Positions 2,467 to 3,312 of a stretch of 14,446 nucleotides of DNA are shown piece by piece; position 1 is the stretch's first letter, and every line of letters starts with the position of its first letter. The position numbers and the translations under genes are program-made. The notes below the pieces were generated by a model, which was not told the DNA's origin, ran no database searches, and saw only the letters and a program-made list of their open reading frames with translations. This DNA is from a virus, in UHGV virus genome UHGV-1642993; one strand, 5' to 3'.

Positions 2467-3312
2467 TTACTGTTCCGCGATAATTTTGATGGTCGTGGCA
2501 GTGAATGCCGCGCCATTAGCCTTGATTGTTAACGTGCTGCCATTTGTTGCAAGGAAGCCGTTTTTATCAACGCTGAAGAATGTTGAAAGAAGGATATTGC
2601 TGGTAGTCGTTGCGGCATTTCTACTGTCTACCAACGTATCAGGAACCGCGCCAGAGAAGGTTAACTGCATTGATCGGTTAGTTGTTCCACCTGGGAATGT
2701 CCCAACGAGAGAGAGTTTAAAATTTAAAGTCTTGTTCTCGTTGTATACGATCATCTTGTCTGATGTAGTATTGAAGAATGGAGCAAGCGTTCCTGATGTA
2801 GGGGTTAACGCCTTAAGCATCGTAATCAGGTTTGTTGCGGTGGTAGGAATAACCTGTGATATTCCAGTGTAAATAACCTCCGATTTCTTACGTGTGGTGG
2901 CATACTCCAGAGCATCAATACGTGTTTCGTGATCAGCAACCTGTGTTTCAAGGCTAGTTACCCGTGTATCAAGCGATGATATGTTGCTCTCATTCTGGGT
3001 AATCCTAATCTCATGATCGGCTATCGAAACTTCAGCAGCACTAATGCGAGTTTCATGGTCAGCCAGTGTTACTTCTGCTGATGATATACGCTGCTCGTGA
3101 TCGGCAAGAGTGACATCCTGTTCATCGTTCTTAACCTGAGCGTCGTATGCCCCCTGACCAGCATCGTTGGCTTTATTGGCTACGTTGGTGAAGTCAAGCG
3201 CCTGAGACAGAATGTACTGCTGATAGGTTGGAGACAGGCCAATCGGTAGCGTTGATGCGCTAATCCTGATGGCGCTTACGCGAACCGGTGTTTTTAGTGA
3301 GTCATCAGCCAT
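2467..3312 (-). CDS. Tail needle protein (P22 gp26 family) with trimeric coiled-coil repeats and a C-terminal knob-like domain (281 aa)
   Basis: N-terminus ([10 protein letters not shown]..., [21 protein letters not shown]) matches my recollection of P22 gp26; five tandem 14-residue repeats ([14 protein letters not shown]-like) follow; a ~130-residue Thr/Asn-rich C-terminal extension is absent from the 233-aa P22 needle and resembles the knob of Sf6-type needles. Start shares 1 nt with the gp10-like stop. Confidence 0.8.
   Translation of the reverse strand: [281 protein letters not shown]
2905..3114 (-). repeat. Five tandem 42-bp (14-codon) repeats encoding the coiled-coil shaft of the tail needle
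   Basis: Protein repeats [14 protein letters not shown] / [14 protein letters not shown] / [14 protein letters not shown] / [14 protein letters not shown] / [14 protein letters not shown]; matching DNA periodicity (…cgtgatcagc…, …catgatcggc…, …catggtcagc…, …cgtgatcggc…). Confidence 0.6.

What the first reader, a model, noticed from the sequence alone, without database searches (positions are those of the whole stretch)
2467..3312. Tail needle with P22-like N-terminus, 5x14-residue coiled-coil repeats and a C-terminal knob
The needle is the membrane-piercing plug of P22-like virions. This one has an extra Thr/Asn-rich C-terminal domain of about 130 residues beyond the coiled coil, as in Sf6-type needles, and a highly regular 42-bp DNA repeat array (2905-3114) that could support recombinational length changes of the shaft.
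Basis: partly seen in the sequence, partly recalled or inferred. Interest (0 to 1): 0.45.

Follow-up and report, generated by a model that had tools for sequence, protein, structure and literature searches.

The report
Sf6-type phage tail needle gene
This is an ordinary, already catalogued gene for the knob-tipped "tail needle" that plugs the DNA channel of a P22/Sf6-like prophage. Its 14-residue repeats are real in the protein but are not a regular repeat in the DNA.

Summary
Window 2467-3312 (minus strand) encodes a 281-aa Sf6-type tail needle. Residues 1-136 are 49% identical to P22 gp26. Residues 130-281 match the crystallised Sf6 and HS1 knobs (E 4e-73; about 78% identity to Sf6) and Pfam PF16532 (2e-95). 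All six L-glutamate-contacting residues are conserved. The gene sits in the canonical P22-like order: gp4, gp10, needle, gp14 slot, gp7, gp20.

The exact protein is already public and named "tail needle knob protein". Its closest relatives are Citrobacter prophages.

The five 14-residue repeats lie exactly at 2905-3114 and are highly significant in the protein (z = 17). They are 10 of the 11 shaft heptads, as in P22 and Sf6.

The "highly regular 42-bp DNA repeat" is not confirmed. Units are 36-60% identical, Tandem Repeats Finder reports nothing, and the longest exact direct repeat is 8 nt. Codon sharing is at chance level. This copy is therefore a poor substrate for homologous recombination, and its close relatives listed are all 281-282 aa (one 250-aa entry is apparently partial).

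Shaft length does vary elsewhere in the family (288-338 aa). Some of that variation comes from near-perfect 42- or 84-bp tandem duplications, and the published range is 11-16 heptads.

Verdict: correct identification, known biology, low interest.

The parts
2467..3312 (-). Complete tail needle gene. It is the equivalent of P22 gene 26 and Sf6 gene 9. It encodes 281 aa, with a TAA stop at 2467-2469.
   Evidence: ORF list and translation. PHROG 1030 'tail needle knob', 7.7e-108, over residues 1-281. An identical protein, P0001, is in NCBI/UniRef as 'tail needle knob protein'.
3136..3312 (-). N-terminal plug domain, aa 1-59. It is a helical hairpin that seals the gp10 tail-hub channel. This is a divergent variant: 54% identical to Sf6, with a one-residue deletion at the hairpin turn.
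   Evidence: phmmer to PDB 8EAP_B (gp26 residues 1-62), 1.7e-12. BLASTP to P22 gp26. Per-domain identities. The plug role comes from the Sf6 cryo-EM structure (PMC9728967).
2905..3135 (-). Coiled-coil shaft, aa 60-136, made of 11 heptads. The a positions are L/I/V. The d positions alternate between His and Ala, Asn or Leu.
   Evidence: Heptad register table. AlphaFold model has a continuous helix over residues 28-140, with pLDDT 93-97 over residues 61-130. Foldseek match to P22 gp26 1-140 (4ZXQ): TM 0.87, rmsd 2.2 A. Sf6 and P22 also have 11 heptads (PMC3741392).
2905..3114 (-). Five 14-residue (double-heptad) protein repeats, aa 67-136: [14 protein letters not shown] / [14 protein letters not shown] / [14 protein letters not shown] / [14 protein letters not shown] / [14 protein letters not shown]. 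This is a repeat in the protein, not in the DNA.
   Evidence: for the protein periodicity (z = 17). for the absence of a DNA tandem repeat.
2470..2904 (-). C-terminal Sf6-type knob, aa 137-281. It has a TNF-like fold and retains the L-glutamate pocket residues E145, K199, S247, D249, L254 and K276.
   Evidence: PF16532, 2.1e-95. PDB 3RWN 4e-73 and 4K6B 1.3e-72. About 78% identity to the Sf6 knob, and the residue mapping. Top Foldseek hits are 3RWN and 4K6B.
3312..4730 (-). Upstream tail-hub gene (P22 gp10 / Sf6 gp8), 472 aa. Its stop codon overlaps the needle start codon (TAATG), as in Sf6.
   Evidence: PF11134, 9.8e-258. 71% identity to Sf6 gp8. Sequence read. The Sf6 annotation shares coordinate 8254 between the two genes.
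2096..2464 (-). Downstream 122-aa ORF in the position held by gene 14 in P22 and Sf6. It starts 2 nt after the needle stop codon.
   Evidence: No Pfam or NCBIfam hit. phrog_17333, unknown function, 3.7e-25. No BLASTP match to Sf6 gp10. Conserved next to the needle in L003-L006.

Best explanation
The ORF encodes the trimeric tail needle of a P22-like (Lederbergvirus-type) prophage, of the Sf6/HS1 knob-bearing subtype.

Mechanism, inferred from homology to the studied P22, Sf6 and HS1 proteins:
1. After DNA packaging, three chains assemble into a long three-stranded coiled coil.
2. The N-terminal helical hairpins form a quasi-sixfold plug. It seals the hexameric gp10 tail-hub channel and keeps the genome in the head.
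3. The 11-heptad shaft projects beyond the tailspikes.
4. The C-terminal TNF-like knob, which binds three L-glutamates at the subunit interfaces, is the first part to meet the outer membrane.
5. On infection the needle is released, which opens the channel. The tip influences how fast DNA is delivered rather than which host is recognised.

The 14-residue periodicity is a double-heptad pattern of the coiled coil, with alternating His and Ala/Asn/Leu core layers. It is shared with P22 and Sf6. It is maintained at the protein level only.
For: Shown here:
- Full-length match to PHROG 1030 'tail needle knob'.
- PF16532 knob, 317.7 bits against a cutoff of 27.
- The knob aligns gap-free to crystal structures 3RWN and 4K6B, E 4e-73 and 1.3e-72. 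The N-terminus and shaft align to P22 gp26 structures, E 1e-31 to 3e-36.
- 49% identity to gp26 residues 1-137.
- The predicted helix over residues 28-140 superposes on 4ZXQ with TM 0.87. The knob's best fold matches are 3RWN and 4K6B.
- All six published glutamate-contact residues are conserved and invariant in the alignments.
- Canonical heptad register over 11 heptads.
- Gene order is gp3, gp2, portal, scaffold, coat, gp4, gp10, needle, 122-aa ORF, gp7, gp20, followed on related contigs by gp16, tailspike and integrase.
- The gp10 stop and needle start overlap as TAATG, as in Sf6.
- An identical protein is already deposited and named.

Taken from the literature:
- The plug function and the quasi-sixfold N-terminal hairpin (PMC9728967).
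- The TNF-like knob, glutamate binding, lack of host specificity, the effect on DNA-delivery kinetics and the 11-16 heptad range (PMC3741392).
Against: - Nothing contradicts the identification.
- The independent monomer AlphaFold model is only moderately confident in the knob. Block-mean pLDDT is 35-80, and residues 232-259 are below 50. Its TM to 3RWN is about 0.5. The fold assignment therefore rests on about 78% sequence identity to the crystal structures, not on the prediction.
- The N-terminal plug domain is unusually divergent (54% identity to Sf6, one-residue deletion), so its fit to the hub is inferred.
- Trimerisation, glutamate binding and function were not tested, and cannot be with these tools.
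Confidence: 0.97

Rival explanations
1. The 42-bp periodic array is a recombination-prone DNA repeat, in the manner of a contingency locus. It would let this prophage change needle length by unequal homologous crossing-over between units.
For: Length variants exist in the wider family: 296, 310, 317 and 338 aa and 288 and 308 aa. P0117 carries a 42-bp unit x2.3 at 98% identity. P0100 carries an 84-bp unit x3.3 at 98%. Tandem duplication in register with the 14- or 28-residue unit therefore does happen.
Against: - In this window the units are 36-60% identical at the DNA level. TRF finds nothing. The longest exact repeat is 8 nt, and the gene has none of 10 nt or more.
- This is far below the roughly 20-30 bp of identity that RecA-type recombination needs (established knowledge, not tested here).
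- Codon sharing at positions with identical amino acids is at chance level, 20 observed against 24.5 expected. So there has been no recent duplication or gene conversion.
- All 114 full-length clusters of this lineage (76-94% identity) are 281-282 aa.
- The duplications seen in relatives lie in the Sf6 lineage. The 84-bp one is bounded by an 11-nt microhomology, GACCATGAAAC, at 84-nt spacing that is already present in Sf6. At the corresponding sites in this window the two sequences share a longest run of only about 5 nt (read from the units).
Confidence: 0.05
2. The knob is a receptor-binding (adhesin) domain that determines host range. The roughly 22% divergence from the Sf6 knob would then reflect adaptation to Citrobacter-type outer-membrane receptors.
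For: - The fold resembles the adenovirus and PRD1 fibre knobs and TNF-family ligands (PMC3741392). The weak next-best Foldseek hits are EDA and TWEAK.
- This knob lineage is found mainly in Citrobacter, with some in Yersinia and Salmonella. The knobs known in 2013 were at most 4.9% divergent and confined to Escherichia and Shigella.
Against: - A P22 chimera carrying the HS1 knob infects Salmonella efficiently, and mutations of the glutamate pocket have no phenotype. Tip changes alter only the kinetics of K+ release and DNA delivery (PMC3741392).
- The identical needle protein occurs with different tailspikes and other modules on different contigs. That fits a generic, non-specific part.
Confidence: 0.08
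3. It is a P22-type needle without a knob, or an unrelated coiled-coil protein of the XhlA haemolysin, SMC or tropomyosin kind.
For: Weak coiled-coil hits only: XhlA 19.8 bits, DUF7310, ATG16 and Tropomyosin; SMC 20 bits.
Against: All these hits are far below their curated cutoffs and cover only the shaft. Alignments to P22 gp26 stop at about residue 144, after which the sequence is knob-type.
Confidence: 0.01

Closest known systems
Shigella phage Sf6 gp9 tail needle (NP_958185; knob crystal structure PDB 3RWN)
   Same: - Same three-part architecture and nearly the same length (281 against 282 aa).
- 11 heptads.
- Same gene position and the same overlap with the hub gene.
- Knob 78% identical and shaft 75% identical.
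- Glutamate-pocket residues identical.
   Different: - Only 72% identical overall, and about 71% at the DNA level.
- The N-terminal plug domain is only 54% identical and has a one-residue deletion.
- The neighbouring gene-14 slot holds an unrelated 122-aa protein.
- The lineage is centred on Citrobacter prophages.
E. coli prophage HS1 tail needle (knob PDB 4K6B), and phages Gally, JEP4 and 720R6 (317 aa)
   Same: Same knob family (E 1.3e-72) and the same N-terminal, shaft and knob plan.
   Different: HS1-type shafts have 16 heptads against 11 here (PMC3741392; alignment).
Salmonella phage P22 gp26 tail needle (PDB 2POH, 3C9I, 4ZXQ)
   Same: The N-terminal plug and the 11-heptad shaft are homologous: 49% identity over residues 1-137 and TM 0.87 to 4ZXQ. 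The same five double-heptad units are recognisable in P22 (alignment).
   Different: The P22 C-terminal tip is a different, unrelated domain. Here it is replaced by the PF16532 knob (PMC3741392).
Knob-only homologues in T4-like phages (RB43, Citrobacter phages Margaery and Miller) and in other 45-60 kb phages
   Same: The C-terminal knob domain is 47-55% identical over residues ~121-267.
   Different: They lack the gp26-type N-terminal plug. Their function is unknown (PMC3741392).

Membership tests
Sf6-type tail needle (P22 gp26 family with PF16532 knob) | N-terminal gp26-type plug domain, a helical hairpin that binds the tail hub | tested here: met
   phmmer to 8EAP_B (gp26 residues 1-62), 1.7e-12, and to full gp26 chains, 1e-31. 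BLASTP 49% identity over residues 1-137. PHROG 1219 'tail needle protein', 1.1e-42, over residues 1-142. It is, however, more divergent than usual: 54% identity to Sf6.
Sf6-type tail needle (P22 gp26 family with PF16532 knob) | Long alpha-helical shaft with a heptad (coiled-coil) register; 11-16 heptads | tested here: met
   11 heptads with L/I/V at the a positions and H/A/N/L at the d positions. Predicted single helix over residues 28-140, with pLDDT 93-97 over residues 61-130. TM 0.87 to 4ZXQ.
Sf6-type tail needle (P22 gp26 family with PF16532 knob) | C-terminal knob domain homologous to Sf6 residues 140-282 (PF16532) | tested here: met
   PF16532, 2.1e-95, 317.7 bits against a cutoff of 27, profile positions 1-175 of 175. 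3RWN 4e-73 and 4K6B 1.3e-72.
Sf6-type tail needle (P22 gp26 family with PF16532 knob) | Conserved L-glutamate-binding residues (Sf6 E146, K200, S248, D250, L255, K277) | tested here: met
   The equivalents E145, K199, S247, D249, L254 and K276 are all present, and are invariant across 10 and 16 aligned homologues. Actual glutamate binding was not tested.
Sf6-type tail needle (P22 gp26 family with PF16532 knob) | TNF-like jelly-roll fold of the knob, shown by an independent structure prediction | tested here: inconclusive
   In the monomer AlphaFold model the knob's 10-residue block means range from 35 to 80 pLDDT, and residues 232-259 are below 50. The best Foldseek hits are 3RWN and 4K6B (E 4e-13), but TM is only about 0.5. 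The fold is nevertheless near certain, given about 78% sequence identity to the crystal structures.
Sf6-type tail needle (P22 gp26 family with PF16532 knob) | Gene located directly after the gp10 tail-hub gene in a P22-like morphogenetic operon | tested here: met
   Pfam assignments of the neighbouring genes. Related contigs carry gp16, tailspike and integrase. Same order and the same one-base overlap as in Sf6.
Sf6-type tail needle (P22 gp26 family with PF16532 knob) | Homotrimer that plugs the tail channel and is released on infection | not testable with these tools
   Inferred from P22, Sf6 and HS1 experiments and structures (PMC3741392, PMC9728967).
P22-type needle tip (gp26 C-terminal domain) | C-terminal domain homologous to P22 gp26 residues ~141-233 | tested here: not met
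   All gp26 alignments end at query residues 136-147. The C-terminus is PF16532 instead.
Tandem DNA repeat / recombination-prone repeat array | Head-to-tail DNA units similar enough to be detected as a tandem repeat and to pair for homologous recombination | tested here: not met
   TRF finds no array at minimum score 30. Units are 36-60% identical. The longest exact repeat is 8 nt. As positive controls, relatives L001 and L002 give TRF scores of 529 and 189.

The most novel reading that the evidence does not exclude
Shaft length in knob-bearing needles may be an evolvable 'ruler'. In-register tandem duplications of 14- or 28-residue blocks arise at short microhomologies and then expand, as seen at 98% DNA identity in E. 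coli and Shigella prophages (296, 310 and 338 aa). They could tune how far the knob projects beyond the tailspikes, to match O-antigen or capsule thickness. On this reading, the window's copy is a stabilised 11-heptad state in which synonymous divergence has erased the DNA repeats.

Separately, this 22%-diverged, Citrobacter-centred knob lineage weakens the 2013 inference that the knob entered P22-like phages only recently. So do the full-length knob needles in Aeromonas and Shewanella podophages.
Probability: 0.15. Interest if true: 0.35.

Novelty: already known. Interest (0 to 1): 0.1.

Why it matters
It matters little beyond correct annotation. The needle-with-knob architecture, its structure, its heptad-number variation (11-16) and its role in sealing the tail and pacing DNA delivery are all published. 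This exact protein is already in public databases under the right name.

Two modest points of value:
1. The 14-residue periodicity is a protein-level feature. Its DNA is fully de-homogenised, which warns against reading protein repeats as recombination substrates.
2. Knob diversity and host spread are now much larger than the 'at most 4.9% different, Escherichia/Shigella only' picture of 2013. The knob now turns up in Citrobacter, Yersinia, Salmonella, Buttiauxella, Aeromonas and Shewanella.

Tried and rejected
- Tandem Repeats Finder on 2300-3500 at the lowest threshold found nothing.
The rerun on the plus strand gave only weak 22-nt matches.
- Megablast of the gene against 5,426 complete E. 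coli genomes found no match. Provenance was established instead through the exact-protein look-up.
- I tested whether adjacent repeat units avoid shared codons, which would suggest selection against recombination. Units 1 and 2 share 12 amino acids but only 1 codon (4.2 expected). Over all unit pairs the count is 20 against 24.5 expected, P about 0.15. This is not significant and the idea was dropped.
- NCBIfam has no specific model for the needle. It gave only sub-threshold SMC coiled-coil noise.
- The monomer AlphaFold prediction, made with a 16-sequence alignment, gave an excellent shaft but a mediocre knob. It is used only as weak corroboration.
- The genome-contig scan returned only 6 confirmed loci. 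That is too few for a species-wide length distribution.
- The two primary structure papers (Bhardwaj 2009 JMB, PMC2713385; Bhardwaj 2011 JBC, PMC3162447) are not held in the library.
- XhlA, tropomyosin and SMC-type readings were rejected as generic coiled-coil hits below their cutoffs.

Full report
**Observation**

The minus-strand ORF at 2467-3312 is real and encodes 281 residues. Its start codon overlaps the stop codon of the upstream 472-aa gene as TAATG. The next gene starts 2 nt after the needle's TAA stop.

- [14 protein letters not shown]
- [14 protein letters not shown]
- [14 protein letters not shown]
- [14 protein letters not shown]
- [14 protein letters not shown]

The periodicity is far beyond chance in the protein. 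The in-register BLOSUM62 sum-of-pairs score is 332, against -67 +/- 23 in 5000 shuffles (z = 17). Lag-14 identity is 38%, against 1-7% at lags 10-16.

Read as heptads, residues 60-136 form 11 canonical heptads. L/I/V occupy one core position. The other core position alternates between His and Ala, Asn or Leu, and this alternation produces the 14-residue super-period.

**The DNA claim fails**

- The five 42-bp units are only 36-60% identical pairwise.
- Tandem Repeats Finder reports nothing at its lowest threshold.
- The repeat finder recovers only three 22-nt pieces at 77% identity.
- The longest exact direct repeat inside the array is 8 nt. The whole gene has no exact direct repeat of 10 nt or more.
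- Units 1 and 2 share 12 of 14 amino acids but only 1 codon.
- Over all unit pairs, 20 of 65 identical-residue positions use the same codon, against 24.5 expected from the window's codon usage.

Synonymous sites are therefore fully randomised. The 42.5% lag-42 nucleotide identity is just the footprint of the protein repeat. There is no sign of recent duplication, of gene conversion, or of significant codon avoidance.

**What it is**

- The whole protein matches PHROG 1030 'tail needle knob' at 7.7e-108.
- Residues 107-281 match Pfam PF16532 (Sf6-type phage tail needle knob) over the full profile: 2.1e-95, 317.7 bits, cutoff 27.
- Against solved structures, residues 130-281 align without gaps to the Sf6 gp9 knob (3RWN, 4e-73) and the HS1 knob (4K6B, 1.3e-72).
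- Residues 1-136/147 align to P22 gp26 needles (4LIN, 4ZXQ, 3C9I, 2POH and others, 1e-31 to 3e-36).
- Identity to P22 gp26 residues 1-137 is 49%.
- Identity to Sf6 gp9 is 54% in the N-terminal 60 residues, 75% in the shaft and 78% in the knob.
- The six residues that contact bound L-glutamate in the Sf6 and HS1 crystals are E146, K200, S248, D250, L255 and K277 (PMC3741392). Here they are E145, K199, S247, D249, L254 and K276, and they are invariant in the alignments.

A monomer AlphaFold model, built with 16 sequences, gives a single very confident helix over residues 28-140. It superposes on P22 gp26 1-140 with TM 0.87 and rmsd 2.2 A. The knob is predicted as beta-rich with only moderate confidence: its 10-residue block means range from 35 to 80 pLDDT, and residues 232-259 are below 50. 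Its best structural matches are still 3RWN and 4K6B (E 4e-13, TM about 0.5), followed by insignificant TNF-family hits.

It is not met. The decisive evidence is sequence identity to the crystal structures, not the prediction.

The C-terminal domain is about 141-145 residues rather than about 130. It is Thr-rich, at 19% T and 7.6% N.

**Surroundings**

The window is the morphogenetic operon of a P22-like prophage, all on the minus strand:
1. Small terminase gp3
2. Large terminase
3. Portal
4. Scaffold
5. P22-type coat
6. gp4 adaptor
7. gp10 hub (PF11134, 9.8e-258)
8. Needle
9. A 122-aa ORF
10. gp7
11. gp20-like ejection protein

Contigs that encode the identical needle continue with gp16, immunity genes, a tailspike and an integrase. 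They are about 97.5% identical to the window.

The exact protein is already public. It is listed as an E. coli hypothetical protein K7223_005038, and UniRef names it 'tail needle knob protein'. Its nearest relatives, at 84-93% identity, come mostly from Citrobacter freundii, C. braakii and C. portucalensis. Some are from Salmonella and Yersinia.

No isolated phage has this gene at more than about 77% DNA identity. It is absent, at megablast sensitivity, from 5,426 complete E. coli genomes.

**How it works (inferred by homology)**

Three chains form a fibre.
- The N-terminal helical hairpins make a quasi-sixfold plug that seals the hexameric hub channel after packaging (Sf6 cryo-EM, PMC9728967).
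- The 11-heptad coiled coil projects past the tailspikes.
- The TNF-like knob with three bound glutamates sits at the distal tip.
- The needle is expelled at infection.
- Alterations of the tip change the kinetics of K+ release and DNA delivery, but not host specificity. Glutamate-site mutants have no phenotype (PMC3741392).

**Repeat-number variation**

The lineage containing the window is constant. P0002 to P0115 plus P0119 comprise 114 full-length clusters at 76-94% identity, and all are 281 or 282 aa. The other entries in that span are P0100, a 338-aa Sf6-lineage variant, and P0106, a 250-aa entry covering 87% of the query that looks partial.

Elsewhere in the family, lengths of 288, 296, 308, 310, 317 and 338 aa occur. 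All the differences lie inside the shaft and are whole heptads.

Two variants are recent DNA-level events:
- A Shigella prophage needle (P0117, 296 aa) has a 42-bp unit x2.3 at 98% identity.
- An E. coli one (P0100, 338 aa) has an 84-bp unit x3.3 at 98% identity. P0116 (310 aa) is the two-copy intermediate.

The 84-bp duplication is bounded by an 11-nt microhomology, GACCATGAAAC. Sf6 already carries this sequence at 84-nt spacing. This suggests slippage or illegitimate recombination, followed by homologous expansion. At the corresponding sites in the window's gene the two sequences share a longest run of only about 5 nt (read from the units).

The family can therefore change shaft length in heptad, 14-residue or 28-residue steps. 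This matches the published range of 11-16 heptads. This copy offers essentially no substrate for homologous recombination.

**Comparison and novelty**

[quoted passage not shown] It is not a P22-type tip and not a DNA tandem-repeat locus.

The only departures from the type proteins are quantitative:
- A knob 22% diverged from Sf6.
- A noticeably divergent N-terminal plug.
- A Citrobacter-centred distribution.

In 2013 all knobs in P22-like phages were reported to differ by at most 4.9% and to be restricted to Escherichia and Shigella. This was taken to indicate recent acquisition. The present lineage shows that picture is outdated. So do the full-length knob needles in Aeromonas phage 4_4512 (55% identity) and Shewanella phage ZP9 (49.5%). 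This is a database-growth observation rather than a discovery.

**Verdict**

The identification is correct, and the protein repeat observation is correct. The DNA-repeat and recombination interpretation is not supported for this locus. The biology is known. Interest 0.1.

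Noticed in passing
window 2096-2464 (-): The 122-aa ORF directly after the needle sits where P22 and Sf6 have gene 14 (DUF2824, 151-155 aa). It has no Pfam or NCBIfam hit and only matches phrog_17333 (unknown function, 3.7e-25). It has no BLASTP similarity to Sf6 gp10. It is conserved next to this needle on all four related contigs. It may be a non-homologous replacement for gp14.
   Followed up: partly
window ~6540-12260 versus 1-6540: There is a mosaic boundary. The terminase, portal and scaffold half (6538-12261) is 93-96% identical to E. coli phages such as EC.P3, E212, JEP4 and CUS-3. The half from coat to ejection proteins (1 to about 6540, needle included) is not covered by any of the 25 phage records listed for the megablast search. 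In that half, at least the needle has its closest relatives in Citrobacter prophages.
   Followed up: partly
window 3136-3312 (-), needle aa 1-59: [quoted passage not shown] Relatives P0095 and P0103 combine a P22/Sf6-like N-terminus with this window's shaft and knob type. That suggests recombination within the gene, perhaps across the conserved [21 protein letters not shown] stretch (window about 3095-3186, the only part that matches HK620, CUS-3 and epsilon34 DNA). Whether the 71%-identical gp10 hub co-varies with it was not examined.
   Followed up: partly
L001 1793-2068; L002 1717-1814: Sf6-lineage prophage needles carry near-perfect tandem DNA duplications. An E. coli example has an 84-bp unit x3.3 (338 aa). 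A Shigella flexneri example has a 42-bp unit x2.3 (296 aa). The 84-bp event is bounded by an 11-nt microhomology already present in Sf6.
   Followed up: yes
phage records H77, H79 and H84-H117: Full-length knob-bearing needles occur in Aeromonas phage 4_4512 (55% identity) and Shewanella phage ZP9 (49.5%). Knob-only homologues (47-55% identity) occur in roughly 178-kb T4-like phages of Citrobacter, Enterobacter, Klebsiella, Cronobacter and Buttiauxella, and in 44-60 kb phages of Klebsiella, Edwardsiella, Pectobacterium, Vibrio and Pseudomonas. This spread is much wider than the Escherichia/Shigella restriction reported in 2013.
   Followed up: no
window 2467-3312 against the E. coli genome collection: The needle gene has no megablast match in 5,426 complete E. 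coli genomes. Yet the identical protein is found on at least 24 contigs, including one NCBI assembly (GCA_031452555.1), and NCBI attributes the protein to E. coli. This suggests a rare prophage module, probably derived from Citrobacter, in E. coli.
   Followed up: partly
window 5181-5405 (-): A 74-aa ORF lies between the coat and gp4 genes. It is also called as a gene on the related contigs, with no Pfam hit. It occupies the position of Sf6 gene 6 (HK620 hkbT-like).
   Followed up: no
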